Source: Elusimicrobiota bacterium | GTDB lineage: Bacteria; Elusimicrobiota; Elusimicrobia; FEN-1173 | Assembly (NCBI GenBank): GCA_041917295.1 | Contig: JAYRXX010000006.1 | Location: 16,876 to 80,875 of the forward strand | Length of the DNA: 64,000 nucleotides | Reading direction: 5' to 3' | Shown here: one piece after another, positions 32,661 to 47,478 of the stretch | Layout: each line of letters starts with the position of its first letter | How positions within the stretch are numbered: position 1 is the stretch's first letter | Notes under the pieces: model-generated | Told to the model about the DNA's origin: nothing | Seen by the model: the letters and a program-made list of their open reading frames with translations, nothing else | Database searches by the model: none | Program-made: the position numbers and the translations under genes

Positions 32661-32689
32661 CCTTAAGAACTTGTAACAAAACAGTAAAC
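32661..32689 (-). promoter_or_regulatory. Conserved upstream element of giant A: TTTACT-N5-GTTACA-N4-CTTAAGG
   Basis: Same three blocks and spacing as 47451-47478; ends 33 nt upstream of the start codon. Confidence 0.7.
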
Positions 32690-32792
32690 GCGGGGCCCCC
32701 GGGGAGTTCCCCATTTCACCGAGAGTAAAAGGATGCAAACGGTATAGGCCATACCGCCCGAAAAGATTGTTTCCGTTAAATCGCGGTTTTGA

Positions 32793-33071
32793 TCAACATG
32801 TCCCTTTAAAGGCGGGGATACTTGTAAATTTCGGCAAGAACAATGGGCGGTTTTTTGTTCTCCCCAACAGGAGCCCGCTTCCAAAAAAAGGAGGGATCCG
32901 CAACAAGGCCTTCTGATCTTCCCAAATATCCCAATTGAAATACCCCCCGGGGGATGAGGGCAAAAGACTCTTCGCCAACGTGATTTTCCCTACCTGCCGC
33001 GGATCGGCGATAAACGCCATTTTCTTTTCTTCCGCCAACAATCGTTTCATTTCCGAGGTCAGATAGCGCAC
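32793..33071 (-). pseudogene. Degraded AAA_14-type ATP-binding protein fragment
   Basis: KMAFIADPRQVGKIT (decayed GPRQVGKTT) and YFNWD; a Walker-B-like remnant IVLAEIYKYPRL lies in another frame after a T run and is followed by a stop. Confidence 0.7.
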
Positions 33072-33085
33072 AGCTATACTCTATA

Positions 33086-33123
33086 TAGCCCTATAAAAAA
33101 GTCTCGACTTTTTAATAGGGCTA
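33086..33123. terminator. AT-rich near-perfect palindrome just downstream of the sulfite reductase gene
   Basis: TAGCCCTATAAAAAAGTC-TC-GACTTTTTAATAGGGCTA: 18-bp arms, one mismatch, 2-nt loop. Confidence 0.5.
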
Positions 33124-33131
33124 GAGAGAGT

Positions 33132-35363
33132 TTACGCGGCGCATTCGCCCACGCCGATGTCGGGTTTGAAGTCGGTGGTTTCGCCCCAATCGAAATACAG
33201 AGTTGGATTTTCCGCATAGGGGGGCAACGTGGTGAATTCCTGAACCAAATCTTTTACCCGTGTTTTTCCCACCCGGTCGAACCAATCATTAAACGTCTCC
33301 CCGGATTTTTTTTCTACTTTAAATGCTCCGATCACTTTTTTGACCGCGTCGGGCACACGCCGGGCCGGGAGAGCCCCGATCACTTGACCAAAGCGCGCTT
33401 CTCCTTCTTTGGTGAACCCGCCGGCCAGCATCATGTAATGGGGCACGGGCCGATCGTTGATCTTTCGGTAGGTCCCATAAAAACCGAGACTGCCAATGTG
33501 GTGTTGTCCGCAACTGTTGGTGCATCCGGAAATTTTAATGTGAACGCCTTCCATGTCCACGTCGGCCGACAACCCGTCGGTAAACAACCCGCCGATGGCT
33601 TTGGCCAGTTCCCGCGATTTGGTCACGGCAATTTGGCAGGTGTCCGCGCCAGGGCAACGGGTGATGTCGGATAACCGGTTCCCCCCCGCGGTGGCCAACC
33701 CGGCTTTCACCAAGGCGTTGTAAACCGTCGGCAAATGCTCGTTTCGAATCCATCGCAACAAGAAGTTTTGTTCCACCGTCGTGCGCAACCGCCCGCCGTT
33801 CAACCGCCGCGACAGATCCGCCAACGCGCGCATTTGGCCCACCGTGATGTCGCCCAAAGGAAGAACCACCGTGGCCCAACTGTAACCCGCTTGACGTTGC
33901 GCGGCCACGTTCGTGGCCTTCCAACGGTCAAACCCCGGCGCGGGGGGTTCCACGGCGACGGATCCCGCCGCCAAAGCCGGCGCGGTTTCTTCCGTCACAG
34001 GAACCGTCCAATCGATGGATCCGGCCCGGGTGGTTAAGACGGCACGCCGTTCGGCTTGAAACTTCTTGCGAAATTCATCGGCCCCCCACTTCTTAACCAA
34101 AAACTTAATCCGGGCGTGGAGCTTGTCGGTTCGGTCGCCGAACCGATCGAACATCCGCACCACGGTTTCGATCGTCGGCATTAAAAGGTCCGCGGGGGTG
34201 AACTCTTCCAACCGAATCGCCACCTGGGGCGTCGCACCCAAACCGCCGCCCACGTAGGTGCGAAACCCGCGCACGCCGTTGCGGATTTCCGCCACAAACG
34301 CCATGTCGTGGATGGGCGTCAGGGCATAATCCGTGGGGGTGCTTTCAAACGCAATTTTGAATTTGCGGGGCAAGTTTTGGCTCAGCGGGTTGCGAAGAAA
34401 AAACTTAAACGCCGCGTCGGCGTACGGGGCCACGTCAAACACATCGTCCGGATGAACCCCCGAGTATGGGTTGGCCGTGATGTTTCGAACCGTGTTGCCG
34501 CACCCTTCCCGCGGCGTCAAACCGGACTCGGCCAAACGGCGAATGACCTTCGGCGTGTCTTCCAAAGGAACCATGTGAATCTGCAAATTCTGACGGGTGG
34601 TGAAATGACCGATCTTGGATGGGGCAAATGTTTCGGTCACGTCAGCCATGGCTTCCAGCTGATCGGGCGTGAGTTTTCCGAAAGGGACCTTGATGCGAAT
34701 CATTTGTTTGTCCACTTGGTTGCGGATGCCGTAAATGCCGTTGTTGAGGCGAAACCGCCGAAAGTCGTCCATTTCCATTTTGCCGGCTTTCAAGGCGCGG
34801 ATGTTTTCCTCGGCTTGCCGGATTTCATTTTCAACCGATTCGGGTAGGGCGTAAGGCATGGACGACTCCTTGATTAACTCAATGGGTTCCTCAATAAACG
34901 GCGCCGATTCCTCGTCGCGAAACCAGGAACGGGCCTCATCAAACCGGCCTTTTTTTACCGACACGATTACGTTGGACCAACCGGCCAACAACGGTTGGGC
35001 CGCGTCGGTGGCGCTGGGCCGCGCCGGGTGGTCGGGATGGGTGTGCAGAACCCCCACCAAATCCAACCCGTCCTTTTCGGCTTCCAAAACCGCCCGGTTA
35101 AACGCCGCCGGGTCCATCACAAATTCGAACTCACCCTCTGTATCGGCCCGCGCTCCCAACGTGTCCCGGGCCGTATCCAATACACTGGGCCGCGCGGATG
35201 TTTTTTCGCGCAAAAGGTTCGCCAGCGGGACAAACCGTTCCACACGCCGGACCCCTCCCGGCATAAACCGTCCCACCAAAACGCCGCACCCTTCGTAAGG
35301 GTAACAGGACTGGGACCACTCCCGAAGAAATTCCCGAACCGACGAACTCCACACCAAACTCAT
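33132..35363 (-). CDS. Mec/JAB (MPN+) metallopeptidase fused in frame to a ferredoxin-dependent siroheme sulfite/nitrite reductase
   Basis: N-terminal YPYEGCG and HTHPDHPARPSATD (JAMM HxHx7Sx2D); from M169: FTTRQNLQIH, GCGNTVRN, LPRKFK, CPGADTC and SGCTNSCGQH cluster/siroheme ligands. Confidence 0.88.
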   Translation of the reverse strand: MSLVWSSSVREFLREWSQSCYPYEGCGVLVGRFMPGGVRRVERFVPLANLLREKTSARPSVLDTARDTLGARADTEGEFEFVMDPAAFNRAVLEAEKDGLDLVGVLHTHPDHPARPSATDAAQPLLAGWSNVIVSVKKGRFDEARSWFRDEESAPFIEEPIELIKESSMPYALPESVENEIRQAEENIRALKAGKMEMDDFRRFRLNNGIYGIRNQVDKQMIRIKVPFGKLTPDQLEAMADVTETFAPSKIGHFTTRQNLQIHMVPLEDTPKVIRRLAESGLTPREGCGNTVRNITANPYSGVHPDDVFDVAPYADAAFKFFLRNPLSQNLPRKFKIAFESTPTDYALTPIHDMAFVAEIRNGVRGFRTYVGGGLGATPQVAIRLEEFTPADLLMPTIETVVRMFDRFGDRTDKLHARIKFLVKKWGADEFRKKFQAERRAVLTTRAGSIDWTVPVTEETAPALAAGSVAVEPPAPGFDRWKATNVAAQRQAGYSWATVVLPLGDITVGQMRALADLSRRLNGGRLRTTVEQNFLLRWIRNEHLPTVYNALVKAGLATAGGNRLSDITRCPGADTCQIAVTKSRELAKAIGGLFTDGLSADVDMEGVHIKISGCTNSCGQHHIGSLGFYGTYRKINDRPVPHYMMLAGGFTKEGEARFGQVIGALPARRVPDAVKKVIGAFKVEKKSGETFNDWFDRVGKTRVKDLVQEFTTLPPYAENPTLYFDWGETTDFKPDIGVGECAA

Positions 35364-36310
35364 AAATCGTGCCCTTTCATGTAATCCTCAAAGTTGTCCA
35401 ACAAGTCCCCCCAGTAGCGCGTGTGAAGATAGCGTTCCCCCGAGTCGGGAAGAACCGTCACGATCACGCCTTCCTTGAGCCCATGAGCCACTTCAAACAC
35501 ACCGTGGACCGCGGCGCCGCACGAATAGCCCACCAAAATGCCTTCTTCCCGGGCCATGCGACAACACATTTCGTAGGCGTCTTCCGTGAACACAGACACC
35601 TTGCGATCGTGCACCCGAGGATCGTAGATACCCGGCACAATCGACGTTTCCATGTGTTTCAAACCCTCCAACCCGTGCAACGGCGTGGCGGGCTCAACAG
35701 CGATAATCTGGATGGCCGGGTTTAATTCTTTCAACCGCCGGCCGGTTCCCATCAGTGTGCCGCTGGTGCCGATCCCCGCCACAAAATGGGTGATGCGCCC
35801 TTCGGTTTGACGCCAAATTTCTTCGGCGGTGGTTTTGTAATGGGCCCTCCAGTTATTGGGATTGTTATACTGGTCGGGCATGTAGTAACGACCGGGATGG
35901 GCCTCGTAAATTCGGTGGGATTCCAGTTGGGCGCCGTCGGTGCCTTCCATCGGGTCGGTAAAAGTCACCTTCGCGCCGAAGGCTTCGATCAACCGGCTTT
36001 TTTCCGAGGCGTTTTGGGGCATCACCAACTGAACCCGAATCCCCAACGCGGCGCCAATCATGGCGTAGGCGATTCCTGTGTTGCCCGACGTGGAATCCAA
36101 CAAAATTTTATCTTTCGTCAGCTCCCCAGAGGCGATGGCTTCCAACATCATGTTTTTGGCGGCGCGGTCTTTCACCGACCCGCCGGGGTTCATGAACTCC
36201 GCTTTCGCAAAAACCGACACGCCCTCCGGAACCCACCGGGACAACCGATCCAATCGCAGAAGAGGGGTGTTCCCAATCCGTTCCAGCAACCCCACGCCCA
36301 GGGTGGTCAT
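35360..36310 (-). CDS. cysM: PLP-dependent cysteine synthase family protein (CysM-like)
   Basis: IGNTPL, NPGGSVKDR (PLP lysine), TSGNTG, GIGTSGT, LPDSGERY. Confidence 0.88.
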   Translation of the reverse strand: MTTLGVGLLERIGNTPLLRLDRLSRWVPEGVSVFAKAEFMNPGGSVKDRAAKNMMLEAIASGELTKDKILLDSTSGNTGIAYAMIGAALGIRVQLVMPQNASEKSRLIEAFGAKVTFTDPMEGTDGAQLESHRIYEAHPGRYYMPDQYNNPNNWRAHYKTTAEEIWRQTEGRITHFVAGIGTSGTLMGTGRRLKELNPAIQIIAVEPATPLHGLEGLKHMETSIVPGIYDPRVHDRKVSVFTEDAYEMCCRMAREEGILVGYSCGAAVHGVFEVAHGLKEGVIVTVLPDSGERYLHTRYWGDLLDNFEDYMKGHDL

Positions 36311-37299
36311 GGGATCCCCAACGACTTGGAAATCTCGTCGGCCTCGCGATTTTTGGCCAACCCCCGCCGGTAAAGATGCGTCACCGCCGGTTGAGTGATC
36401 CCCAACAAGTCGGCCACATCAATTTTGCGCATGCCGCACCGCTCCGACAACAAATACGATGCCATCGATCGCGCCTCCGCCCCGATCCGGGTTGATTTTC
36501 CCCGCCTCGACAACGTCTTTTCCGGCAGGCCAAAATAAGTTTCGATCCCCCGAATAAAACGGTCGGCCAAAACCGGATCCGGGGCCTTGTTCCGAACCGC
36601 TGAGGCTGAAGGCAAAACGCTTTCAACGAACGCGCGTCCCCCCAACACCCGGGAGTCGAACGATCCCGCCGCGTTCCGGCCCACAACCACATCCATCCCC
36701 CGGGCACTGCGGACCAACCCGCCACCAGACAAATCCGGCTGGGATTTTTTCCTTTCGGCCACGTGCGCGGCGTAGTTTTTAATACCCGTCGGACCACGCC
36801 CCCCAAACGCCTCCCACACCGCGTCCACCGCCTGCCAGGAGGCCTTTTCCAGCCCCAACAGGGCCCGATGGCCGCTCCACGGATAGGATTCCAAAGCGTC
36901 CAAGGAGCCCACCGTGTTTTCTTTCAAAGGAATCAAATGAACGTAAGCCACCAAATCTTTAAAAAAGACCGAGCGGTCGCATACGGTGGACTTGTAGCGG
37001 TTTTTGAACAAGCGCCCGGAACGATTGTGTTGCCGGTTAAAATACCCCGCGTATCGTGTGGACAGACGGTTCATCAATTCCGACAATGGCCGGGACCCCG
37101 TTTCGAGCAGAACGTGAAAATGCGTGGGCAAAAGCGCCCAGGCGTAACAGGTAAACCCGCCCTCTTTAATTAACTCCGCCAACGCGTCTCGAAACACAGC
37201 GTAGTCGGACCGGTCAATAAATAATTTCTGCCGATCGTTGCCCCGGTTGATCACATGATGCAACAGCCCCGGCGCGTCCAAACGGGCTTGGCGGGGCAC
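36307..37299 (-). mobile_element. Y1/HUH transposase-like gene (RAYT/IS200-related) with C-terminal DnaA-C-like HTH
   Basis: HHVINRGNDRQKLF, LLPTHFHVL (HUH), GRLFKNRYKS, YVHL.P, YPWSG; no IS ends visible; stop overlaps the cysM ATG. Confidence 0.8.
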
Positions 37300-37307
37300 A
37301 GGAGATC

Positions 37308-38465
37308 TCAGTATTGAGGGACAGACGGGTCGATCTCTTCTGACCAGGCGCGGATCCCGCCTTTGACGTTCGAGAGTTTTTTAAACCCCATCTGTTTGAG
37401 GATGTGAATGGCTTTGGCACTGCGCACCCCCGACCGGCAATGAACGACGATATCGTCGGCGGTGTCCAGCTCGTTGGCGCGAACCGCTACGTCGGCCAGC
37501 GGAATCAAACGTGCACCGGGCAAACGAGCGATGTCGTATTCGCTGGGTTCGCGCACATCCAACAGCGTGAACTTGTCTTTGCGGTCCATGCGGGCTTTCA
37601 GTTCTTTTACGGTAATTTCGACCAAGGAATCCCCCTGCGTTGCGGACGGTTCGGAACCCCGACCGACGCCGCAAAACTGGTCGTAATCGACCAACTCGGT
37701 GATGGTCGGCCGATCCCCGCACACCGGGCAATGGGGGTTCCGTCTAATTTTAAGTTCATCAAACGACATGTCCAGCGCGTTAAACAGCAACAACCGCCCC
37801 ACCAACGGACGGCCTTTACCTATAATTAGTTTAATGGTTTCGGTGGCTTGAATCAGGCCCACCAGCCCCGGCAAAATTCCCAGCACGCCGCCTTCCGCGC
37901 ACGAGGGCACTTCGCCCGGTGGAGGGGGTTCCGGATACAAGCACCGGTAGCAGGGGCTCTCCGGGTCCCCCGGCTTAAACACCGTGGCTTGGCCGTCGAA
38001 CCGAAAAATCGACGCGTAAACATTGGGCTTCTTTAAAAACACGCAGGAATCGTTGGTGAGGTAGCGGGTTTGAAAATTGTCGGTTCCGTCGACCACGATG
38101 TCGTAGTTTTTAACAATATCCAAGGCCACATCGCGGCGAAACGGGATGTTGTATGTTTTGACGTTCACGTTGGGGTTGATGTCGCGGATGGTTTCCCGGG
38201 CGCTTTCCACTTTAAGTTTGCCCACGTCGTCGGTGCCGTGAATCACCTGCCGGTGAAGGTTGGTGTGGTCCACCACATCAAAATCCACCAGTCCCAATGT
38301 TCCCACCCCGGCCGCTGACAAATACAACGCGTTGGGGGACCCCAACCCGCCGGATCCGATCAAAAGGACTTTCGCATCCATCAATTTTTCTTGGCCTTCC
38401 ACGCCCACCTCGGGCATAATCAAATGCCGCGAGTAACGCAAAACCTGTTCCTGGTTCAATTTCAC
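37308..38465 (-). CDS. moeZ: MoeZ-type adenylyltransferase/sulfurtransferase (ThiF plus rhodanese)
   Basis: RYSRHLIMPEVG, GSGGLGSP, CYRCLYPEPP, CPVCG; C-terminal rhodanese DVREPSE...HCRSGVRS; GTG start overlapping the gph stop. Confidence 0.93.
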   Translation of the reverse strand: MKLNQEQVLRYSRHLIMPEVGVEGQEKLMDAKVLLIGSGGLGSPNALYLSAAGVGTLGLVDFDVVDHTNLHRQVIHGTDDVGKLKVESARETIRDINPNVNVKTYNIPFRRDVALDIVKNYDIVVDGTDNFQTRYLTNDSCVFLKKPNVYASIFRFDGQATVFKPGDPESPCYRCLYPEPPPPGEVPSCAEGGVLGILPGLVGLIQATETIKLIIGKGRPLVGRLLLFNALDMSFDELKIRRNPHCPVCGDRPTITELVDYDQFCGVGRGSEPSATQGDSLVEITVKELKARMDRKDKFTLLDVREPSEYDIARLPGARLIPLADVAVRANELDTADDIVVHCRSGVRSAKAIHILKQMGFKKLSNVKGGIRAWSEEIDPSVPQY

Positions 38466-39100
38466 GACAGCACCTCCCGCAGTTCGGCTAACGAACCGAT
38501 CAAATAGTCTGGTGATAACGCCGCCAAATCCGGACCGGGCCGAAACCCGTATGTCACCGCGGCCGCCCGCACGCCCGCCGACCGGGCCGCGCGAATGTCC
38601 AAGGGGCTGTCGCCCACCATCACCGATGTTTCCCGGGGCGCCCCCAACCGGCGAAGGGCTTCCCACAGGGGTTCGGGATCCGGCTTGCGGGTGGGCAGTG
38701 TATCCCCCGCGATCACCACCGTAAAAAACCCGTCCAGACCCGTGGCTCGCAAGGTTTTTTCCGTGTGCGCCATTGGTTTATTGGTGACCACCGCCATCGC
38801 ACGCCCGCTTAACGCCCTCAACGTTTCAATCACGCCGGGATACAACGCGGTTGTATCGGTGCAATGGTCCAGGTAATAGGGCAAAAACAGGTCCAATGCC
38901 CGTTTCATTGACGCGTCGTCCAGGGGCCCGGCGGCCCGAATCAACAACTGACGAACCCCATCGCCTACCATCCGAGCAACACTGTCCACGGACAACGTGG
39001 GACGTCCCAATCGTTCCAACGTAAAATTAACCCCTTCGGCGATATCCCGACGGCTGTCCACCAGGGTTCCGTCCAAATCGAACAACAACGCTCCCGACAT
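38462..39100 (-). CDS. gph: HAD-family phosphoglycolate phosphatase-like hydrolase
   Basis: FDLDGTLVDS, VVTNKP, KPDPEP, MVGDSPLD. Confidence 0.85.
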   Translation of the reverse strand: MSGALLFDLDGTLVDSRRDIAEGVNFTLERLGRPTLSVDSVARMVGDGVRQLLIRAAGPLDDASMKRALDLFLPYYLDHCTDTTALYPGVIETLRALSGRAMAVVTNKPMAHTEKTLRATGLDGFFTVVIAGDTLPTRKPDPEPLWEALRRLGAPRETSVMVGDSPLDIRAARSAGVRAAAVTYGFRPGPDLAALSPDYLIGSLAELREVLS

Positions 39101-39699: not shown

Positions 39700-39706
39700 G
39701 GGATTT

Positions 39707-40601: not shown

Positions 40602-40642
40602 GGACTCCTCCTTTTCTTCTGAAAGAGGATTATATCATTTCG

Positions 40643-40762: not shown

Positions 40763-40793
40763 ATTTTGGGTAAAAACGAAGAGGGAAACGGGG

Positions 40794-41876
40794 CTATTCA
40801 GCGGGATTTTTTTGGTTCAGGCACCGTAGAAGTGCGCGGGCCGCATCGTGGGCTTCCAAATGATTTTGAAACCCCCCGAACGCCGCCCAGGGGCGAAATC
40901 CGCCCGCCCGATCAATACGTACGCCGTAGCGGTTCGGTCCGCCGGAAAACACCACCCGAATTCCCACCACTGTTGATCGTGGGAAAGACCGGCTCCGGCG
41001 AATGGGGCCCAAACACCGACGAACCGTAACGTTAACCGGGTCCACCCACACTTCTTCACGGCCAAACCATTGGGCAACCAAGACCAGCGCGGCCGCCACA
41101 TTAAGCAAAGCCCCTCCCACCATGACCCACAGGGGCGCCTTCAGTCGGACCATCACCATAAAAAAGGCCGTTAACGTCAAAGCCCAGATCACAAGAGGGT
41201 TGGGGCCGGGAAAAACAAAAGGAGACCGCAAAGAAAACCGCCTCTGGTCCCCAACTGTATTAACGGTCAAGGGACGAGGGGGCCCGCCTTTAAGAGAGGC
41301 CGCGGCGGGAAGCGGGACAGGAAGAAGTTTTGAAGCCGGACCCATGTTGGGTGAAACCACCAGGGCCCATTCACCCTCAAAACGACCGGGCGTATTTGAT
41401 TGGGCCCGCATTCGCCAGAACACGTTACCATCCGGCGATAGGCCCGATGGCGGCGCTTCGACCGGAAGAGAAAAATGAAACGGCCACGCGCCGTCCGACG
41501 ATGGGGTGGGGGAATCGGCTTCGGCGGACCACAACAACCATTCCCCCCCGCCGCCCCGTTCAAAACAGTCCAAAAATAATTTCATCCCCCCGGCCAGGGG
41601 TTCCTGGTCCCCCGTGTGGACGACCCCCACCATCATTTCGCCCGGCCGACCCGCTGACCAGAGAGTCACTTTGGACCGTTGACTTTTTTTCCAATGGCGA
41701 AATCCCGCCGTGACCAACACCGCCAATCCGACGGATCCCACGACGACGCCCGCTAAGCCCAACAGCAACGGGCCCCCAAAATTCCAACCGGTCGCCTGTC
41801 CCAAACACGCCAACGCCGCCCCCGACCACAAAACAGTTAACGCCAGGGGCCCGCCCCACACCCATTTATTTTTCAT
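40794..41876 (-). CDS. Hypothetical membrane protein
   Basis: 360 aa with two hydrophobic hairpins and beta-rich soluble regions; in operon with flanking genes; no family recognised. Confidence 0.65.
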   Translation of the reverse strand: MKNKWVWGGPLALTVLWSGAALACLGQATGWNFGGPLLLGLAGVVVGSVGLAVLVTAGFRHWKKSQRSKVTLWSAGRPGEMMVGVVHTGDQEPLAGGMKLFLDCFERGGGGEWLLWSAEADSPTPSSDGAWPFHFSLPVEAPPSGLSPDGNVFWRMRAQSNTPGRFEGEWALVVSPNMGPASKLLPVPLPAAASLKGGPPRPLTVNTVGDQRRFSLRSPFVFPGPNPLVIWALTLTAFFMVMVRLKAPLWVMVGGALLNVAAALVLVAQWFGREEVWVDPVNVTVRRCLGPIRRSRSFPRSTVVGIRVVFSGGPNRYGVRIDRAGGFRPWAAFGGFQNHLEAHDAARALLRCLNQKNPAE

Positions 41877-42285
41877 GGGAAGAGACCATCCCGGACAAAC
41901 CCATCAAAATTTTTTCTTGGGAGCCCGTCAAAGGGGCCACGGACAAGCGGGGAATCCGAACAAAGTCCATGGCAGACAAAACGGGGTGAGTGCGCAATTC
42001 GGATAAAGGCACGGGGGTTTTGAGCCACCGGTCAAACGCCACGTCCACCGCCAACCAGCGTTCATCGGCTGGGTCGGGGTAGGCGGTCCCCGCCGCCCGG
42101 GCCCAACAAACCAACGCTTTTTCAGGGCTCGAATGGTATCCCCACACGCGGTCCCCGGCAGAGAGAAGCCGAAGGTTTTTGCGTGCCAGGGGACCCCGAA
42201 CGCCGTCCCACCGGGCATGGCCATCCCGTTCGACCTGGGTCCAAGGAAACACGTCAGGCTCGGTGGAAAAAATCCAGGCGGTCAC
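41866..42285 (-). CDS. EVE domain protein
   Basis: WIFSTEPDVFPW, WDGVR...ARKNLR...GDRVWGYHS, FVRIPRLSV; GTG start overlapping the moaE stop. Confidence 0.88.
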   Translation of the reverse strand: MTAWIFSTEPDVFPWTQVERDGHARWDGVRGPLARKNLRLLSAGDRVWGYHSSPEKALVCWARAAGTAYPDPADERWLAVDVAFDRWLKTPVPLSELRTHPVLSAMDFVRIPRLSVAPLTGSQEKILMGLSGMVSSHEK

Positions 42286-42752
42286 GAGGGCGGATAGGTT
42301 AAAACGCTGTCGGAGATCAGCATCGTTTCCCGGTGATGGTCCGACCACCGGGACGTTCCATCCGAAAAAATATCTTTTTTACGCAGGGGAACGCGGCATT
42401 TCATTTGTTCCAAGGCGTAATGGCAGGCCAAAAACGCCGCGGCCCGCTGGGGCGAACTGACCACCAAAAACATGCTGGTTTCCCCCACGGGGATTCGCCC
42501 CACACGGGTTTGCCACAAAACCTGGGTCCCGGGCCACTTTTCCGCCACTTCCGTTGTGATCTTTGACACTTCGGCCTCGGCGGCCGCGTCGGCGCTTTCG
42601 AACTCCAAAGCCACCACATTGCCTATATCCGTTCGGTCTGGTCGAACCACGCCTTGAAACGACACCACCGCGCCGGTTTCCGATTCCCGAGCCCGTTCCT
42701 CCAACCCATCAAACGCAATGGGCCCGTCCGTAAAAAAAGGGACCGACTCCAT
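42282..42752 (-). CDS. moaE: Molybdopterin synthase catalytic subunit MoaE-like
   Basis: GAVVSFQGVVR, RVGRIPVGE, VSSPQRAAAF.AC.YALEQMK.RVP..KK. Confidence 0.8.
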   Translation of the reverse strand: MESVPFFTDGPIAFDGLEERARESETGAVVSFQGVVRPDRTDIGNVVALEFESADAAAEAEVSKITTEVAEKWPGTQVLWQTRVGRIPVGETSMFLVVSSPQRAAAFLACHYALEQMKCRVPLRKKDIFSDGTSRWSDHHRETMLISDSVLTYPPS

Positions 42753-43675
42753 TACAGCGCCACCATACGATCAATGGCCCTACGGGCTTTGGCGGCCACG
42801 TCGGGGGGCACGGTGATGCGGTGCTTGAGGTTTTGCAAGGACCACAAAACATTTTCCACGGTGATTTTTTTCATGAACTCGCATTGGGCCGCCCGAGCCA
42901 CGGGCAAAAAGGTTTTGGCGGGATTCTGTTTTTGCAGGGTGTGCAAAATGCCGGTTTCCGTGGCCACCAAAAATTCGGTCCGGGGCGATTCTTTGGCGTG
43001 GCGCACCATCCCGCTGGTGGAAGCGATATAATCGGCGTGTTTCAATGCCGACGACAAACAACCGCATTCCGGGTGGACCATCAATTCGGCGTTGGGGTGG
43101 GCTTTTTTTTGTGTTTCGATGTCCACGTCAGTAATGGCGTAATGCACGTGGCACGATCCGGGCCACAAATGGATTTTTCGTCCGGTTTTTTCCCTCACGT
43201 ATTGGCCCAAATACATGTCGGGCAAAAACAAAATTTCCTGTTCTTTGGGAAACGATTCAACCACCTTGACGGCGTTCGAGGAGGTGCAACAGGCATCGGC
43301 CTCGGCTTTCACCTCGGCCGTGGTGTTGACATAGGCCACGACGGCCGCCTGGGGATGGCGGGCTTTCCACGCCCGAACTTGAACCGCGTCGGCCGTGGCC
43401 GCCAACGAACACCCCGCTTCCAGGTCCGGCAATAAAACCATTTTGTGGGGAGCCAACACAGCGGCGGTTTCGGCCATAAAATGGACCCCGCAAAAAACGA
43501 TCACGTCCGCCGAAGATTTGGCCGCCGCCTGAGACAACGCCAACGAGTCGCCCACCACGTCGGCGAGATCTTGCACCTCGCCCCGCTGGTAATTGTGGGC
43601 CAAAATCACCGCGTTGCGTTGTTTGGCCAAACGCTTTATTTCAGCGACGATGTCGGTGGGCGGGGCCGTGGCCAT
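42752..43675 (-). CDS. nadA: Quinolinate synthase
   Basis: ILAHNYQ, FCGVHFMAETA, AGCSLA, CHVH, HPEC, CEFMK. Confidence 0.96.
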   Translation of the reverse strand: MATAPPTDIVAEIKRLAKQRNAVILAHNYQRGEVQDLADVVGDSLALSQAAAKSSADVIVFCGVHFMAETAAVLAPHKMVLLPDLEAGCSLAATADAVQVRAWKARHPQAAVVAYVNTTAEVKAEADACCTSSNAVKVVESFPKEQEILFLPDMYLGQYVREKTGRKIHLWPGSCHVHYAITDVDIETQKKAHPNAELMVHPECGCLSSALKHADYIASTSGMVRHAKESPRTEFLVATETGILHTLQKQNPAKTFLPVARAAQCEFMKKITVENVLWSLQNLKHRITVPPDVAAKARRAIDRMVAL

Positions 43676-43676
43676 A

Positions 43677-44054
43677 TCAAAAAGTGAGGATGGGCCCTCC
43701 TTGGGCCTGGGACAAAAAGGCGTTTAATCCGACCACAGCGTCCAACCGTTGCGCCAACAGACGCGGGGACAAATTCAACATCCGCGCCCAGGCGGAACAC
43801 GCATACACCCGCACGCCGCCGGCTTGCCGCAGATCGTCCAAAAACGCGGCGGGAGACCGATGTTGAAAATGGAGGTGTTGAGCCGTGGCCGCGTTGGCGA
43901 CGGGCCAGTGATTTTCCACAAATGCTTTTAACGCGGGTCCGCGAAAAAAGAGGATCACGGTTTCTCCCCGAGCCCGGGCGGCGGCGCCGAACGATACGGC
44001 TTCGTACAACCGATCCATTTCCGCTCCATAGACCACAACCGAAAAAACAGCCAC
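43677..44054 (-). CDS. DsrE/DsrF-like protein
   Basis: LYEAVSFGAAARARGETVILFF..PAL...GVRVYACSAWARM pattern; GTG start at 44054 inferred. Confidence 0.65.
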   Translation of the reverse strand: MAVFSVVVYGAEMDRLYEAVSFGAAARARGETVILFFRGPALKAFVENHWPVANAATAQHLHFQHRSPAAFLDDLRQAGGVRVYACSAWARMLNLSPRLLAQRLDAVVGLNAFLSQAQGGPILTF

Positions 44055-44077
44055 AGAGGAAGAGGGATAAGGTGTCC

Positions 44078-44392
44078 CTATCGCGCTTTCGTCCGGGCGG
44101 GAGCGGGCTTTGCGGCGGGTTTGGTGTCGGGCTTGACCTCGACGGCCGGGGCCGGTTTTTCGGCCAAGCGGGCTTTCAACGCTTCCAAACTCTCGCGGTT
44201 TTGGGCTTGGATTTTGGCAATCCGCCGGGCCGCCAGCCACTGGCGCAAACTGGTATCAACCACATAAAAAACGCCCAGGGCCATTAAAAAACCCGAAAGA
44301 CTTATCCCGATTAAGAACCTCTTCTTGGAGGGGATCAGCAAAGAAACAATGACCCCGATGATGCCCAAACTTAAGATTGCCAACCCAAACAT
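44078..44392 (-). CDS. Small membrane protein with Pro/Ala/Lys-rich tail
   Basis: Two TM segments, a short coiled coil and a low-complexity tail; start at MFGLA. Confidence 0.6.
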   Translation of the reverse strand: MFGLAILSLGIIGVIVSLLIPSKKRFLIGISLSGFLMALGVFYVVDTSLRQWLAARRIAKIQAQNRESLEALKARLAEKPAPAVEVKPDTKPAAKPAPARTKAR

Positions 44393-44519
44393 GTTGCTCG
44401 TTAATATGAACACAAGTCCCCCCTGGTTAAGCCCCAGACCCCGGAGCCGATGTGGCACCCATTTATATTAACAGACAAACCGCTCCGCGACAAGGCAAAT
44501 TTTGTTACACTGAAACACC

Positions 44520-45962
44520 GTGAAACAGATCAGTCTGCGGACAAAATTGGTGGCGCACTCGACCCTGCTGGTGTTGGCGGCGGGGACCGGGGTGGGCGTG
44601 TCCCTTTATTTCGCCGAGCGGCAGTATCTGGTCCGCCGGTTCGACCAAACCCAGGAAGACAATGTCACCAGCCTCGTCCAAATCCGCCGCGAGTCGGTGA
44701 CCTCCAACAACGAACAACTGTTGCTCAGCTACCTGTCGTTGCTTCGTCGATCGCGGGCCCTCAGTTACGCCATGATCCAAGACACGACGGGCCGCGTGCT
44801 GTCGCACACAAACCCGGCGTTCGTGGGGCAACGCCTTTCCGACCCGCTGACGCTGGGGGCGCTGGAAACCGCCTCGTTGTTGCGCCAACGGGGCGGCTCC
44901 ACCGATGACGTGATCGACTTGGCGTTGCCCATCGTCCACGGCACCAAACGTTTGGGCGTTGCCCGGGTGGGATATTCCCGCGCCACCATGGCCCAGTTGG
45001 TGGACCAAACGTTGCAGGCGGCCCGACATCGAATTTTGATTGCCACCTTTTTGGCCATGGGGTTCGGCGTGGCGCTGGCGGTGGGATTGTCGTTGTTGTT
45101 TACGAAACCCATCGAGCTCTTGCGCGCGGGGGCCCGAATCATCGGGGAGGGCAACCTCACCCACCGCATTCAGATCACCACCCGCGACGAGTTGGGCGAC
45201 CTGGCCAAAGAGTTCAACGTGATGGCCGCCAAACTTCAAGAACTGGACCAACTGAAACAGGATTTCGTCTCCAACGTCACCCACGAACTGCGGTCGCCGT
45301 TGACGTCTCTGCGCGGGTATGTGGAACTGCTGTTGCGCGAAGGCGCCGGACCGATCAATGAAGAACAACGGGAATTTTTAATCGTCATTAAAAACAATTC
45401 CGTCCGATTGGCGCGGTTCATCGACAACCTGCTGGACGTGGCCAAAATCGAAGCGGGGAAAATCGAATTGCATCCCGAATTCATTCGACTTCAAGATTTG
45501 GCCTTGGAAATGTCGGTGGTTTTTCGGCCCATGGCCCAGGAAAAACGCATCGATTACCGGGTGGAAATGGACCCGCGCCTACGCCCGGTGCGGGCCGACG
45601 CCGACAAAATGCTGGAAGTGCTGACCAACTTGTTAAGCAACGCCTTCAAATTCACTCCCCCAGACGGAAAAGTCACGCTTTCGGCTGTTCCCGAAAACGC
45701 CCACGTTCACATAACGGTATCCGACACGGGCATTGGCATCCCAGCGGAATCCCAGTCCAGCGTGTTCAACAAATTCGAACAGGTGAAACCCACCCAAGGC
45801 CTGGCGCGGAAAACAAAAGGGTCCGGTTTGGGATTGACCATCGTCAAAGGCATTGTGGAAGCCCACGGCGGCCAGGTTTGGATCGAAAGCCAACCGGAAA
45901 AGGGAACCACCGTGCATGTGGTTTTGCCCCATTCCAGTGAGGAGGAGCCGGAGGAGGGATGA
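44520..45962 (+). CDS. Sensor histidine kinase (two TM, HAMP, HisKA, HATPase_c)
   Basis: DELGDLAKEFN (HAMP), THELRSPLT (H-box), NLLSNAFKF, DTGIGIP, GSGLGL. Confidence 0.95.
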   Translation: MKQISLRTKLVAHSTLLVLAAGTGVGVSLYFAERQYLVRRFDQTQEDNVTSLVQIRRESVTSNNEQLLLSYLSLLRRSRALSYAMIQDTTGRVLSHTNPAFVGQRLSDPLTLGALETASLLRQRGGSTDDVIDLALPIVHGTKRLGVARVGYSRATMAQLVDQTLQAARHRILIATFLAMGFGVALAVGLSLLFTKPIELLRAGARIIGEGNLTHRIQITTRDELGDLAKEFNVMAAKLQELDQLKQDFVSNVTHELRSPLTSLRGYVELLLREGAGPINEEQREFLIVIKNNSVRLARFIDNLLDVAKIEAGKIELHPEFIRLQDLALEMSVVFRPMAQEKRIDYRVEMDPRLRPVRADADKMLEVLTNLLSNAFKFTPPDGKVTLSAVPENAHVHITVSDTGIGIPAESQSSVFNKFEQVKPTQGLARKTKGSGLGLTIVKGIVEAHGGQVWIESQPEKGTTVHVVLPHSSEEEPEEG

Positions 45963-46065
45963 ATCATTGCGTCTCCCCATTTTTTTATTCTACGATTGTT
46001 TTGATTTTTTGCGGACTTCGGCAGGGCCACAGAGCGGAATTGGGAATCCATCGCGGAGGACACGT

Positions 46066-46746
46066 ATGCTAAAAAAACGGATCATGGTGGTCGACGACGA
46101 TCGAGACATTCGCCGTCTGGTGGAAAGCATTTTGGCCAAAGAAGGCTTTGTGACCATCGGCGCCGACAGCGGGGCGGACGCGCTCAAAAAAGTGGAAAAC
46201 TCCAAACCCGACTTGATCATATTGGACTTGCAACTGCCGGACAAAGACGGTTTTGAAGTCTGCAAAATTTTACGGTCCGACCCGACCACAAAAACGATTC
46301 CCGTGGTGTTTTTGACGGTGCAAAATTTGGATTCGTATAAAATCGCGGGGTTGGAAATGGGCGCCGACGATTACATCACCAAACCGTTCAACCAAACCGA
46401 ACTGGTGGCGCGGGTGAAAGCGGTTCTGCGCCGAGCCGAATGGCGCGACACCAAAGATTCGCCGGTCAAGGAAGGCCCCTTGAGCGTGGACATGGAAAAA
46501 CACACCGTGATCATGGACGGAAAATCCCTTAACCTGGCGCCCAAAGAGTTTGATTTGTTGCTGACGTTGATGCGCAACCAAGGCAAAGTGTTGACTCGGC
46601 CGGAACTTTCCGAATCGGTGTGGGGCCAAGAGTATTCCAACACCACCCGAACCGTGGATGTCCACGTGGGCCGACTGCGGCGCAAACTGGGAAAACACGG
46701 AGACCGGGTCCGAACCGTCGAACGGATCGGTTACCGCTTCGAGTAA
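46066..46746 (+). CDS. OmpR/PhoB-family response regulator
   Basis: MVVDDD, IILDLQLP, GADDYITKPF; winged helix with RTVDVHVGRLRRKL and TVERIGYRF; GGAGGA RBS before ATG 46066. Confidence 0.95.
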   Translation: MLKKRIMVVDDDRDIRRLVESILAKEGFVTIGADSGADALKKVENSKPDLIILDLQLPDKDGFEVCKILRSDPTTKTIPVVFLTVQNLDSYKIAGLEMGADDYITKPFNQTELVARVKAVLRRAEWRDTKDSPVKEGPLSVDMEKHTVIMDGKSLNLAPKEFDLLLTLMRNQGKVLTRPELSESVWGQEYSNTTRTVDVHVGRLRRKLGKHGDRVRTVERIGYRFE

Positions 46747-46847
46747 CCCCCGCTTTCCCCCCATCGTTTAACGCTCTTTGGCCGTCCTTGTGGCGCGTTT
46801 TAGGCCGAAATCCTCCCGTATTTTTTACCCCAAAGCAAAACCCGACA

Positions 46848-46879
46848 CGTCACTATTTGCGTTGACGCAAATAGTGACG
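46848..46879. repeat. Perfect 15-bp inverted repeat with 2-nt loop between convergent genes
   Basis: CGTCACTATTTGCGT-TG-ACGCAAATAGTGACG. Confidence 0.75.
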
Positions 46880-46914
46880 CCGCCATGTGGAACGTGTTCC
46901 CCCACGGACACGAA

Positions 46915-47295
46915 TCAAATCGGCCGTGTGTGGATGATGTTGTGAATGCTCTGCGCGAATGAAGAATAGCGGACGGGTTTGGCCATGGCGGCTTGGACAT
47001 CGATGGTTTGGAGTTTGCGTTCGTCGGCCCAGCCGGTGACGATCACCACGGGCGTGCCGTTGGTGGCCGGATGGCCGCGAAGTTGTTTTAAAACGTCATA
47101 CCCGTTGACAAAGGGCATTTCCAAATCCAAGGTGATCAAGTGGGGACGAAAATCGATGGCCGCGCGCAAGGCGTCCCGGGGGTCGGTGACACACCGCACT
47201 TCATATCCCATGGACTCGCAAAAGTCCCCCAACAAGTCGGCCATTCCGATATCGTCTTCAATCACCAAAATCCGGCGTGGATCGAGCATGATCAT
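46915..47295 (-). CDS. Single-domain response regulator (CheY-like receiver)
   Basis: ILVIEDD, LITLDLEMP, VVIVTG, MAKPV. Confidence 0.9.
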   Translation of the reverse strand: MIMLDPRRILVIEDDIGMADLLGDFCESMGYEVRCVTDPRDALRAAIDFRPHLITLDLEMPFVNGYDVLKQLRGHPATNGTPVVIVTGWADERKLQTIDVQAAMAKPVRYSSFAQSIHNIIHTRPI

Positions 47296-47352
47296 CCCCC
47301 CTCACGCTAAAATTACCACTTGCCCAATCCTACACCCGATTTGATTTTCTCG

Positions 47353-47370
47353 CCTTAAGAAGTTGTAACA
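47353..47370 (-). promoter_or_regulatory. Inverted partial copy of the giant-gene element (GTTACA-N4-CTTAAGG) upstream of the receiver gene
   Basis: Plus strand CCTTAAGAAGTTGTAACA, differing at 1 of 18 positions from CCTTAAGAACTTGTAACA at 32661. Confidence 0.6.
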
Positions 47371-47450
47371 GCGTCTTTCGCCCCTTGCGAACCAATGAAG
47401 CACGATTCCCCCCCCCCCACATTAATTTAATTAACTATGTCCCATGCGAT

Positions 47451-47478
47451 TTTACAATTCCGTTACAAACTCTTAAGG
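47451..47478 (+). promoter_or_regulatory. Conserved upstream element of giant B: TTTACA-N5-GTTACA-N4-CTTAAGG
   Basis: Matches the giant A element; ends 36 nt upstream of ATG 47515. Confidence 0.7.

What the first reader, a model, noticed from the sequence alone, without database searches (positions are those of the whole stretch)
32661..47478. A conserved element sits 33-36 nt upstream of giants A and B: a giant-gene regulon signature
Seen: minus strand 32689-32661 reads ...TTTACT gtttt GTTACA agtt CTTAAGG, and plus strand 47451-47478 reads TTTACA attcc GTTACA aact CTTAAGG: the same three blocks, spacing and distance to the start. An inverted GTTACA-N4-CTTAAGG at 47353-47370 faces the divergent receiver gene, and a lone TGTTACA precedes the histidine kinase gene. 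Known: OmpR-family regulators bind half-sites repeated every 10-11 bp, and TTTACT-N-GTTACA resembles the recalled E. coli OmpR F1 site. Inference: the nearby HK/OmpR pair (44520-46746), or an alternative sigma factor, co-regulates the giant genes. The element also supports ATG 47515 as the true start of giant B.
Basis: partly seen in the sequence, partly recalled or inferred. Interest (0 to 1): 0.75.

Follow-up and report, generated by a model that had tools for sequence, protein, structure and literature searches.

The report
Shared operator-promoter upstream of giant genes
A ~40-bp array of four evenly spaced short repeats sits at a fixed distance from a -10 box in front of two giant secreted-protein genes and a small receiver gene. 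It recurs in front of their relatives in other Elusimicrobia genomes and looks like the docking site of an OmpR/PhoB-type response regulator that switches these mostly leaderless genes on together.

Summary
The 15-specified-base core GTTACAA-NN-TCTTAAGG occurs exactly three times in 64 kb: before giant A, before giant B and, inverted, before the divergent receiver gene. There are no near-matches. A/B similarity is 80% inside the element and 33-39% outside it, and the two proteins share only 25% identity, so it is not duplication debris.

The element is four phased half-sites, (T/G)TTACA-N5-GTTACA-N4-CTTAAG-N5-CTTAAG, with period 11/10/11. A TAnnnT -10 box follows 20-21 nt after block 3, and no -35 box is present. 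In most giant-family genes the start codon lies 6-10 nt after the -10, which implies leaderless mRNA.

The same module precedes 8 of 10 homologues fetched by protein similarity from other Elusimicrobia MAGs, and also a few non-giant genes. The histidine kinase (HK)-response regulator (RR)-receiver-giant B gene order, with divergent elements, is conserved in three genomes. GTTACA is also the published E. coli OmpR half-site.

Best reading: an activator-dependent promoter bound by tandem OmpR/PhoB-type regulator dimers, possibly the adjacent one. The binder is untested. The "lone TGTTACA" before the kinase gene is an extended -10, not a site. This is an ordinary kind of regulation newly seen in an uncultured phylum.

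The parts
32683..32688 (-). Giant A promoter, block 1 (TTTACT), centred about -58 from the inferred start site
32661..32677 (-). Giant A promoter, core: block 2 GTTACAA (32677-32671), 2 nt, then block 3 TCTTAAGG (32668-32661)
32654..32658 (-). Giant A promoter, block 4 (ATCTT; CTTCTG in place of CTTAAG)
32634..32639 (-). Giant A -10 box TAGAAT, preceded by TGg. It lies 21 nt after block 3 and 6 nt before GTG 32627, so the start is inferred to be leaderless.
26988..32627 (-). Giant A (1879 aa): signal peptide, then an N-terminal domain shared with giant B (weak ChaN/Tiki-like Pfam hit)
47451..47456 (+). Giant B promoter, block 1 (TTTACA)
47462..47478 (+). Giant B promoter, core: GTTACAA (47462-47468), 2 nt, then TCTTAAGG (47471-47478)
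47481..47488 (+). Giant B promoter, block 4 (ATCTTTAG; ATCTTAAG in relatives)
47499..47504 (+). Giant B -10 box TAAAAT, preceded by TGa. It lies 20 nt after block 3 and 10 nt before ATG 47515.
47515..56991 (+). Giant B (3158 aa from ATG 47515): signal peptide, shared N-terminal domain, then two AAA+ / Lon_C units
47353..47369 (-). Receiver-gene promoter, core only (GTTACAA ct TCTTAAGG); blocks 1 and 4 are absent
47327..47332 (-). Receiver-gene -10 box TAGGAT, 20 nt after block 3. A leader of about 31 nt with a GAGGGGGG Shine-Dalgarno sequence precedes ATG 47295.
46915..47295 (-). Stand-alone receiver (CheY-like, 126 aa) transcribed from the element. It is the proposed feedback or phosphate-sink partner (inference).
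46066..46746 (+). OmpR/PhoB-family response regulator (226 aa), the candidate binder. Its recognition helix NTRTVDVHVGRLRRKLGK is conserved (RRK/RKK) in five orthologues.
44520..45962 (+). Sensor histidine kinase (sCache_3_2, HAMP, HisKA, HATPase_c). Its own promoter is the extended -10 TGTTACACT at 44503-44511, with no element.

Best explanation
The element is the operator part of an activator-dependent sigma-70-type promoter.

Four same-orientation half-sites, nTTA(C/A)(A/G), start 11, 10 and 11 bp apart, so all lie on one face of the helix. The two upstream ones read TTACAA and the two downstream ones CTTAAG. They occupy about -60 to -23 relative to the transcription start.

A TAnnnT -10 box, often preceded by TGn, follows 20-21 bp after the third half-site. 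No TTGACA-like -35 box is present. The third half-site takes up the region just upstream of the -35 position and runs into it.

The proposed mechanism is that a phosphorylated OmpR/PhoB-family response regulator binds head-to-tail as one dimer (receiver promoter, blocks 2+3) or two dimers (giant-gene promoters, blocks 1-4). It would substitute for the -35 contact and recruit RNA polymerase. The most economical candidate is the conserved regulator encoded next door at 46066-46746, with its Cache/HAMP kinase.

Transcription would then start at or a few nt before the start codon, giving leaderless mRNAs for most giant-family genes. The stand-alone receiver, driven by the same element, would feed back on the phosphorelay.

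Shown: the sequence anatomy, its statistics, its conservation and the conserved gene order. Inferred: the identity of the binder, activation rather than repression, the start sites, and the role of the receiver.
For: 1. Specificity. There are three exact cores in 64 kb and nothing else above background. All three are intergenic and point at the gene they precede.

2. Selection rather than shared descent. A versus B is 28/35 identical inside the element and 33-43% in the flanks. The A and B proteins are 25% identical over about 290 aa. Unrelated genes also carry the element: receivers, an SBBP/Por_Secre_tail protein and a MiaB-like radical-SAM gene.

3. Conservation. A genome scan returned 9 hits, about the number I estimated for chance, yet 4 of them were Elusimicrobia with the full extra blocks. 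Eight of 10 family 5' ends fetched by protein homology carry the element with variant cores: L014, L015, L016, L017 G1 and G2, L018, L019 and L020.

4. Geometry. TAnnnT starts 19-21 nt after the core in 17 of 21 instances, against about 0-1 at other offsets. Among instances not selected for a -10, the count is 10 of 14, and the rest have nAnnnT or TnnnnT at the same place. The start codon lies 6-10 nt after the -10 in 11 of 13 family genes.

5. No canonical -35/-10 pair at these sites. The Fic gene in the same window has a textbook TTGAAA-N17-TAAAAT followed by 6 nt and ATG. The organism therefore uses normal -35 boxes where no activator is needed.

6. Half-site phasing and counts. The E. coli OmpR ChIP-exo motif is GTTACATTTTGTTACAT (PMC5438342). 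PHO boxes are 6 conserved plus 5 variable nt in arrays of 2-8 units (PMC2275107). Tandem PhoP dimers displace the -35/sigma region 4 contact (PMC11825685).

7. HK-RR-receiver-giant B gene order with divergent elements is found in the window, L010 and L022. The RR is 87% identical between the window and L010, while giant B is 37% identical.

8. There is no RNA alternative. Rfam is empty and fold z-scores are +0.6, +0.1 and -0.1.
Against: - No binding or expression data exist, so the regulator assignment rests on site architecture and proximity.
- Blocks 3 and 4 (CTTAAG, itself a palindrome) differ from blocks 1 and 2 (TTACAA) and are the most conserved part. Two different proteins could therefore read the element.
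- The kinase-regulator operon has no element of its own, so there is no sign of autoregulation.
- RR orthologues with an identical recognition helix sit in loci without a recognisable element: L023 at 72% and L024 at 60% identity.
- The RR scores below NCBIfam cut-offs for every named regulator, so its specificity cannot be read from homology.
- Core invariance in the motif-based hits is partly ascertainment, because exact patterns were searched.
- One family paralogue (L017 G3) uses a different, canonical-looking promoter.
Confidence: 0.55

Rival explanations
1. The promoter-operator architecture is the same, but the binder is a different transcription factor. It could be another OmpR/PhoB-family regulator encoded elsewhere. 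Alternatively there could be two proteins, one reading the TTACAA direct repeats and one reading the CTTAAG palindromes.
For: Blocks 3 and 4 have a different sequence and are palindromic. ATCTTAAGAT is a perfect 10-bp palindrome in L002 and L010 (L007 has ATCTTAAG followed by GG). The receiver promoters keep only blocks 2 and 3. RR orthologues in L023 and L024 have no nearby element despite an identical recognition helix. There is no element at the RR's own operon.
Against: The HK-RR-receiver-giant B gene order is kept in three genomes with the elements. All four blocks share the TTA core and helical phasing. In L019 the block at the core's GTTACAA (block-2) position reads TTTACA and the next block reads TTTAGG 11 nt on, so all its blocks look like one repeat family.
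Confidence: 0.27
2. The element is the upstream recognition element of an alternative sigma factor, with TCTTAAGG or GTTACAA acting as a '-35', rather than an activator site.
For: The block sequences are very strongly conserved, more so than is typical for transcription-factor sites. The distance to the -10-like hexamer is fixed. The regulated genes are envelope or secreted proteins, a typical ECF theme. ECF-type sigma genes occur in two related loci.
Against: The spacer from TCTTAAGG to the -10 hexamer is 20-21 nt, and from GTTACAA about 30 nt, which is outside the 16-18 nt range used by the sigma-70 consensus scan. The -10 hexamers are ordinary TAnnnT, often with a TGn extension. That is the housekeeping type, as at the Fic and kinase promoters. 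No GAAC/CGT-type ECF pattern is seen. No sigma gene is conserved next to the element. The repeats run with helical periodicity over about 40 bp, which suits an oligomeric DNA binder.
Confidence: 0.08
3. The element is a repressor operator: a protein bound from about -60 to -23 blocks RNA polymerase on an extended -10 promoter.
For: About half of the promoters have a TGn extended -10, which can work without a -35. Block 4 lies between the -35 and -10 positions. OmpR/PhoB-family proteins can also repress (PMC11825685).
Against: Half of the promoters have neither a -35 nor a TGn, so they should be nearly silent without an activator. The upstream phased sites at -58 and -47 are typical of activation. 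Most characterised PhoP/PhoB targets are activated (PMC2275107).
Confidence: 0.08
4. The similarity is non-functional: a leftover of the duplication that produced the giant paralogues, a mobile repeat, or an RNA element in the 5' UTR.
For: Giants A and B are distant paralogues. Inverted copies flank the receiver/giant B intergenic region.
Against: Similarity stops at the element borders. Non-homologous genes carry the element. It is kept across genomes whose proteins are 35-65% identical. Orientation and distance to the -10 and the start codon are fixed. There are no extra copies elsewhere in 64 kb. Rfam gives no hit and there is no fold signal.
Confidence: 0.02

Closest known systems
E. coli OmpR operators at ompF/ompC (tandem GTTACA-type half-sites)
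   Same: The half-site is the same. The published OmpR repeat is GTTACATTTTGTTACAT (PMC5438342), against GTTACAAAAATGTTACAAG in L003 and TTTACTGTTTTGTTACAAG at giant A. Both have several same-orientation sites in helical phase upstream of, and reaching, the -35 region. Both are controlled by a two-component system.
   Different: The period is 11 bp between blocks 1 and 2 rather than 10. The promoter-proximal half-sites are CTTAAG, not GTTACA-like. The local regulator is not an OmpR orthologue: it scores 161 bits against a cut-off of 331, and its best hit is PhoB at 225 bits against 296. The targets are giant secreted proteins, not porins.
PHO boxes of PhoB/PhoP (E. coli, B. subtilis, Streptomyces, M. 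tuberculosis)
   Same: Direct-repeat units of 11 nt (6 conserved plus 5 variable) occur in arrays of 2 to 8. Binding is cooperative and tandem, and the proximal dimer replaces the -35/sigma region 4 contact (PMC2275107 and PMC11825685). The local RR's best family match is PhoB, and its recognition helix RTVDVHVGRLR is PhoB-like (PhoB sequence recalled from memory). From memory, the B. subtilis PhoP consensus TT(A/T/C)ACA-N5 fits blocks 1 and 2.
   Different: The RR is below the PhoB equivalog cut-off. The kinase has a periplasmic Cache sensor rather than a PhoR-type input. There are no pst/phoU or phosphatase genes among the targets or neighbours seen. Blocks 3 and 4 do not fit any PHO consensus.
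Leaderless promoters (common in Actinobacteria, Deinococcus-Thermus and archaea; knowledge from memory)
   Same: A -10 hexamer lies 6-10 nt before an ATG or GTG start codon, with no Shine-Dalgarno sequence. This is also seen at the Fic and kinase genes of the window.
   Different: Here the leaderless start is coupled to an upstream activator array and to genes of 1,900-3,200 codons. No start-site data exist for this phylum.
MerR-type promoters with over-long spacers
   Same: There is an unusually long distance (20-21 bp) between a conserved upstream block and the -10, with a palindrome in between in some copies.
   Different: MerR promoters have real -35 boxes with 19-20 bp spacers and a single dyad operator between the boxes. 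Here the conserved blocks are direct repeats extending to -60, and the palindrome is not conserved in A, L003, L013 or the receiver promoters.

Membership tests
OmpR/PhoB-family response-regulator operator (tandem direct repeats) | Two or more same-orientation hexamer half-sites spaced 10-11 bp centre to centre | tested here: met
   TTA cores fall at alignment columns 3, 14, 24 and 35, giving spacings of 11, 10 and 11, in 18 aligned instances. The arrangement is visible in every instance.
OmpR/PhoB-family response-regulator operator (tandem direct repeats) | The promoter-proximal site overlaps or replaces the -35 box of an otherwise weak promoter | tested here: met
   Block 3 ends 20-21 nt before the -10. 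There is no TTGACA-like hexamer at 16-18 nt. The control promoter (Fic) has TTGAAA-N17-TAAAAT.
OmpR/PhoB-family response-regulator operator (tandem direct repeats) | The half-site resembles an experimentally defined site of the family | tested here: met
   GTTACA equals the E. coli OmpR ChIP-exo/MEME motif KWWGTTACAT and the repeat GTTACATTTTGTTACAT (PMC5438342). Blocks 3 and 4 (CTTAAG) have no documented counterpart.
OmpR/PhoB-family response-regulator operator (tandem direct repeats) | A cognate winged-helix regulator is encoded in the genome, ideally linked | tested here: met
   Response_reg plus Trans_reg_C protein at 46066-46746. Linkage to the element is kept in L010 and L022, but not in L023 or L024.
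OmpR/PhoB-family response-regulator operator (tandem direct repeats) | Demonstrated binding of the phosphorylated regulator and regulator-dependent transcription | not testable with these tools
   Needs EMSA, footprinting or DAP-seq, plus reporters.
Pho regulon (PhoB/PhoR) | The regulator is a PhoB equivalog and the targets include pst/pho genes | tested here: not met
   TIGR02154 scores 225 bits against a cut-off of 296.2. The kinase has sCache_3_2 plus HAMP. The targets are giant secreted proteins, a receiver, a T9SS-tail protein and a MiaB-like gene.
Canonical sigma-70 promoter | TTGACA-like -35, a 16-18 nt spacer, and a TATAAT-like -10 | tested here: not met
   The -10 is present (TAGAAT, TAAAAT, TAGGAT) but no -35 partner is found. 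The scan gives 0 sites at A and only off-register sites at B.
Leaderless mRNA gene | A -10 box 5-10 nt upstream of the start codon, with no Shine-Dalgarno sequence | tested here: met
   The spacing is A 6 nt (GTG), B 10 nt, L003 7, L013 6, L014 7, L016 6, L017 6 (GTG), L018 6, L019 6, L020 6 (GTG) and L010 10. The exceptions are L007 (about 55 nt with AAGGAG) and L015 (23 nt).
Leaderless mRNA gene | The mapped 5' end coincides with the start codon | not testable with these tools
   No transcript data are available.
ECF or other alternative-sigma promoter | A family-specific -35 (e.g. GAAC) and -10 (e.g. CGT) with a 16-17 nt spacer, and a linked sigma/anti-sigma pair | tested here: not met
   The spacings are 20-21 or about 30 nt and the -10 hexamers are of housekeeping type. 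No sigma gene is conserved next to the element.
Known RNA family or structured 5' UTR | An Rfam match, or a fold more stable than shuffles | tested here: not met
   Rfam gives 0 hits in the window and in L002, L011 and L012. The z-scores are 0.61, 0.07 and -0.06.
Dispersed repeat or MITE | Many copies irrespective of gene starts, with terminal inverted repeats bounding a unit | tested here: not met
   There are only 3 copies in 64 kb, all at promoters. The distance between the inverted copies varies, 92 nt in the window against 19 nt in L010.

The most novel reading that the evidence does not exclude
A conserved Elusimicrobia two-component system (Cache-HAMP kinase, PhoB-like regulator and a receiver 'sink') uses this four-repeat operator to switch on, in concert, a fast-evolving multi-paralogue family of giant secreted proteins that are translated from leaderless mRNAs. 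This would be a dedicated giant-gene regulon. As far as my literature searches show, it would be the first cis-regulatory logic described for bacterial giant genes, and an entry point to when and why such proteins are made. A more radical variant is that the invariant CTTAAG blocks are read by a second, unknown factor or by an unusual polymerase contact with a 20-21 bp spacer.
Probability: 0.3. Interest if true: 0.6.

Novelty: new member of a known kind. Interest (0 to 1): 0.42.

Why it matters
Giant genes in uncultured bacteria are usually catalogued only by size and domain content. The one giant-gene paper I checked (bioRxiv 10.1101/2023.11.21.568195) does not use the word promoter. How and when giant genes are expressed therefore looks largely unexplored.

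This element gives four practical things:
- A concrete, testable regulatory handle: a defined operator, a candidate regulator, and predicted start sites.
- Correct start codons for badly annotated giant genes. Examples are ATG 47515 for giant B, and in L017 a GTG 6 nt after the -10 where the database call starts about 200 nt too late.
- A motif with which whole Elusimicrobia genomes can be scanned to define the co-regulated set.
- An indication that leaderless initiation is common in this lineage.

Mechanistically it is a conventional kind of bacterial regulation, so the surprise is moderate.

Tried and rejected
1. Source genome. A look-up of the receiver protein found only a 1.1-kb contig (L001) that stops before the intergenic region.

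2. Collection scans. The genome scan with core plus -10 gave 9 hits, of which 5 are chance (archaea, Dyadobacter, Lachnospirales, Virgibacillus). The metagenome scan gave 3 hits. L011 (AT-rich, no -10, no block 4) is left as uncertain or chance.

3. Giant C. Its 5' end lies beyond the window. It has no Pfam domains, no homologue in any fetched locus, and no database homologue of its N-proximal 700 aa (one search was a frame error).

4. L021. This is the closest relative (88-92% nt). I hoped to use it for fine footprinting, but there the promoter and the first ~60 nt of giant A are replaced by unrelated DNA.

5. Autoregulation of the kinase-regulator operon. No element is present, and the TGTTACA there is an extended -10.

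6. RNA explanations. Rfam and folding were both negative.

7. Reading the reverse strand as an ECF TGTAAC -35. I rejected this because it would point away from the genes at A, L003 and L013.

8. Reading block 1 (TACAAT in B) as a -10. The T at position 6 is not conserved in other copies.

9. Assigning the regulator by homology. The best PDB matches are RegX3, MtrA, PrrA and PhoP, and all NCBIfam hits are below cut-off (two searches were frame errors).

10. Function of the shared N-terminal domain. There are only sub-threshold PF04187 (ChaN/Tiki) hits and no PDB sequence match.

11. Literature. An exact-string search for the ompF F1 site found nothing (one search was a syntax error). The B. subtilis PhoP consensus could not be confirmed in the held library and is quoted from memory.

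Full report
**1. The observation**

- On the minus strand, TTTACT-gtttt-GTTACAA-gt-TCTTAAGG occupies 32688-32661 and ends 33 nt before GTG 32627 of giant A.
- On the plus strand, TTTACA-attcc-GTTACAA-ac-TCTTAAGG occupies 47451-47478 and ends 36 nt before ATG 47515 of giant B.
- A third, inverted core (47369-47353, minus strand) faces the stand-alone receiver gene (46915-47295).

A search for GTTACAANNTCTTAAGG that allowed up to three mismatches returned just these three sites, all exact. Shuffles gave a mean of 0.78 hits at that tolerance. The three-block pattern gave 2 hits against 0.04 expected. A 41-column weight matrix built later scores the three sites 52, 50 and 22 bits. The next best position in 64 kb scores 4.4 bits, and shuffled windows reach at most 12.7.

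**2. Not a duplication remnant**

Giants A and B are distant paralogues, with 25% amino-acid identity over about 290 N-terminal residues. Aligning 220 nt around the two starts gives 28/35 identical positions inside the element, but only 33% upstream, 43% between the element and the -10, and 39% downstream. The receiver gene is unrelated to the giants and carries the same core.

**3. Anatomy**

Aligning 18-21 instances gives the consensus tnTTACAAnantGTTACAAcTTCTTAAGGggATCTTaag. It contains four blocks with a shared TTA core starting 11, 10 and 11 bp apart, which is one helical turn. Blocks 1 and 2 read (T/G)TTACA(A). Blocks 3 and 4 read CTTAAG(G), and block 4 is looser (CTTAAG, CTTTAG, CTTCTG or CTTAAT). 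Receiver promoters have only blocks 2 and 3.

A TAnnnT hexamer starts 19-21 nt after block 3 in 17 of 21 instances, against about 0-1 at any other offset. Among the 14 instances whose retrieval did not require a -10, the count is 10. The other four have CAGAAT, CACACT, TCAAAT or TCATTT at that place. About half are preceded by TGn.

In the window the hexamers are:
- TAGAAT at 32639-32634;
- TAAAAT at 47499-47504;
- TAGGAT at 47332-47327.

At the position where a -35 box should lie, the sequences are GGGGAT, GGGAAT and GCGAGA. The consensus scan finds no -35/-10 pair in register. The Fic gene of the same window has TTGAAA-N17-TAAAAT. The organism therefore uses ordinary -35 boxes, and these promoters lack one.

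**4. Leaderless starts**

The start codon lies 6-10 nt after the -10 hexamer in 11 of 13 giant-family genes:

| Gene | nt after -10 | Start codon |
|---|---|---|
| A | 6 | GTG |
| B | 10 | ATG |
| L010 | 10 | ATG |
| L003 | 7 | ATG |
| L013 | 6 | ATG |
| L014 | 7 | ATG |
| L016 | 6 | ATG |
| L017 G2 | 6 | GTG |
| L018 | 6 | ATG |
| L019 | 6 | ATG |
| L020 | 6 | GTG |

None of these has a Shine-Dalgarno sequence. The exceptions, L007 and L015, and the non-family targets have leaders with Shine-Dalgarno sequences. This fixed geometry independently supports the -10 assignment. It implies transcription starting at or next to the start codon, and it confirms ATG 47515 rather than the upstream in-frame ATG 47437, which lies 14 nt upstream of block 1, as the start of giant B. 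The kinase gene (TGTTACACT, 8 nt, GTG) and the Fic gene (6 nt) show the same habit.

**5. Relatives**

*Genome scan.* A scan of GTDB representative genomes for core plus N20-21 plus TANNAT gave 9 hits, which is about the number I estimated for chance. Four of them are Elusimicrobia: L002, L003, L010, and L007, 'Ca. Obscuribacterium magneticum' (taken to be Elusimicrobiota from memory). These four also carry the unrequired blocks 1 and 4.

L010 reproduces the whole window arrangement: kinase, regulator, receiver on the opposite strand, an inverted core, a direct full element, and a giant B homologue.

*Metagenome scan.* This added L013 (a family gene), L012 (before a MiaB-like radical-SAM gene) and the doubtful L011.

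*Family search.* The shared N-terminal domain defines a family of 54 proteins, and every named member is from Elusimicrobia. I fetched members by protein identity, without reference to the motif. The element turned up with variant cores before each of these:

| Locus | Core |
|---|---|
| L014 | ...TCTTAATC |
| L015 | TTTACAA..TCTTAAGA |
| L016 | ...CCTTAAGG |
| L017 G1 | ...TCTTAATA |
| L017 G2 | exact |
| L018 | GTTGCTAGAACTTAAGG |
| L019 | TTTACAA-N4-TTTAGGA, one base longer |
| L020 | ...AATTAAGG |

Two of the ten 5' ends lack it. L017 G3 has a TTGATT-N18-TATGAT promoter and a ~55-nt leader. L021 is a close relative of the window in which the promoter and the first ~60 nt of giant A have been replaced and the gene is broken.

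A further copy precedes a 552-aa SBBP/Por_Secre_tail protein followed by a PorV-like gene (L003:2268).

The signature is therefore strongly but not exclusively associated with the giant family.

**6. The candidate regulator**

The 226-aa protein at 46066-46746 is a Response_reg plus Trans_reg_C regulator.
- Its closest solved relatives are RegX3, MtrA, PrrA and PhoP.
- Its best NCBIfam model is PhoB, at 225 bits against a cut-off of 296.
- It is far better conserved than its neighbours: 87% identity with L010, where giant B is 37%.
- More than 50 clusters at 70% identity or above exist in Elusimicrobia.
- Its recognition helix NTRTVDVHVGRLR(R/K)KLGK is unchanged down to 59% overall identity.

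In L022 (77% identity) the kinase-regulator-receiver-giant B order is kept. Both divergent promoters carry recognisable, degenerate elements with the same 20-nt distance to the -10. In L023 (72%) the neighbourhood is rearranged. In L024 (60%) the kinase-regulator-receiver trio is kept, but no element is recognisable. Linkage therefore supports the adjacent regulator but does not prove it.

**7. Comparison with known systems**

- E. coli OmpR's genome-wide motif is KWWGTTACAT, and its known repeat is GTTACATTTTGTTACAT (PMC5438342). That is the same half-site as blocks 1-2, with a 10-bp rather than an 11-bp period.
- PHO boxes of PhoB/PhoP are 11-nt units (6 conserved plus 5 variable), need at least two units, occur in arrays of up to six to eight, and are bound cooperatively (PMC2275107).
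- Cryo-EM of M. tuberculosis PhoP complexes shows tandem dimers, tetramers or hexamers. Their promoter-proximal dimer overlaps the -35 element and displaces the sigma region 4 contact (PMC11825685).

The element fits this class in repeat length, orientation, phasing, number and position. It is not a Pho regulon by the tests available: the regulator is below the equivalog cut-off, the kinase has a Cache sensor, and no pst or pho genes are among the targets. The CTTAAG blocks have no documented counterpart.

**8. Alternatives**

- *Alternative sigma factor.* Unlikely. The -10 boxes are of housekeeping type, the distance from the conserved blocks to the -10 (20-21 or about 30 nt) fits no known -35 spacing, and no sigma gene is linked.
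- *Repressor.* Possible for the TGn-extended promoters, but half of the promoters have neither a -35 nor a TGn.
- *Second protein reading the CTTAAG palindromes.* This cannot be excluded.

**9. Verdict**

The main inference, a shared functional regulatory signature of OmpR type in front of the giant genes, is supported by comparative evidence. The identity of the regulator remains an inference, the kinase 'half-site' is misread, and the regulon is not limited to giant genes.

This is a new instance of a well-known regulatory design in an uncultured phylum. Its useful by-products are corrected starts, predicted leaderless transcripts, and a scannable motif for giant-gene expression studies.

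Noticed in passing
window 44503-44522; L010 216-234: The kinase gene has an extended -10 (TGTTACACT) 8 nt before its GTG start. In L010 the same motif lies 7 nt before a TTG. The gene therefore looks leaderless too, and the ORF listing start in L010 (TTG 194) is probably too far upstream.
   Followed up: partly
window 25682-25716: The Fic/DOC gene has a textbook TTGAAA-N17-TAAAAT promoter with the ATG 6 nt after the -10. Leaderless initiation seems common at transcription-unit starts in this organism: Fic, giant A, the kinase and giant B, and possibly 42752.
   Followed up: partly
window 47408-47418: A run of 11 C lies between the divergent receiver and giant B promoters, about 33 nt upstream of block 1. 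A similar C-run lies upstream of the Fic gene (about 25617-25627). It is not conserved in L010 or L022. It could be a slippage-prone tract. Unexplained.
   Followed up: no
L021 8951-9603 vs window 32568-33132: In a close relative (88-92% nt identity in the flanking housekeeping genes), the giant A promoter and the first ~60 nt of the gene are replaced by 650 nt encoding an ATPase fragment. The gene is split into 112-aa and 1170-aa calls, so it is probably a pseudogene. Giant A itself is only 74-82% identical and is therefore evolving fast.
   Followed up: partly
window 28001-30000 and 48001-50000: GC content drops to 0.41-0.44 inside giants A and B, against 0.55-0.59 in the surrounding genes.
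   Followed up: no
window 47515-56991: Giant B combines a signal peptide, the family N-terminal domain (sub-threshold ChaN/Tiki PF04187 hit) and two AAA+ / Lon_C protease-like units. This is an unusual architecture for an exported protein.
   Followed up: partly
window 57013-64000 (-): Giant C is more than 2,329 aa and its 5' end lies outside the window. It has no Pfam domain, no similarity to A or B, no homologue in any fetched locus, and no database hit for its N-proximal 700 aa.
   Followed up: partly
L002 1-697 (-): A full, high-scoring element with a perfect TATAAT is followed by at least 640 nt with no ORF of 100 aa or more. Only a 16-codon ORF abuts the -10, and there is no Rfam hit. 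This may be a non-coding transcript or a long leader.
   Followed up: partly
L017 106-14517: Three family paralogues lie in tandem. G1 is split into five ORF calls, probably through long-read frameshifts. G1 and G2 carry the element, while G3 has a canonical-looking promoter instead. The database start of G2 (6001) is about 200 nt downstream of the likely GTG.
   Followed up: partly
L014 7764-8213; L020 6738-8246: DDE transposase genes sit next to or inside family genes. In L020 the gene is interrupted.
   Followed up: no
L012 2316-2392 (-): A full element (blocks 1-4) lies between an rsmE-like gene and a MiaB-like radical-SAM gene in a dnaK-dnaJ ... dnaG cluster. It has a weaker CACACT at the -10 position and a Shine-Dalgarno leader, so it appears to be a housekeeping-type target of the same signature.
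   Followed up: partly
L024 9380-16693 (-): Next to a 60%-identical kinase-regulator-receiver trio lie a PorV/UPF0164-TPR gene and a gene of more than 3,974 aa rich in fn3-like repeats. No recognisable element is present. The link between this two-component system and giant or surface genes may be older than the motif.
   Followed up: no
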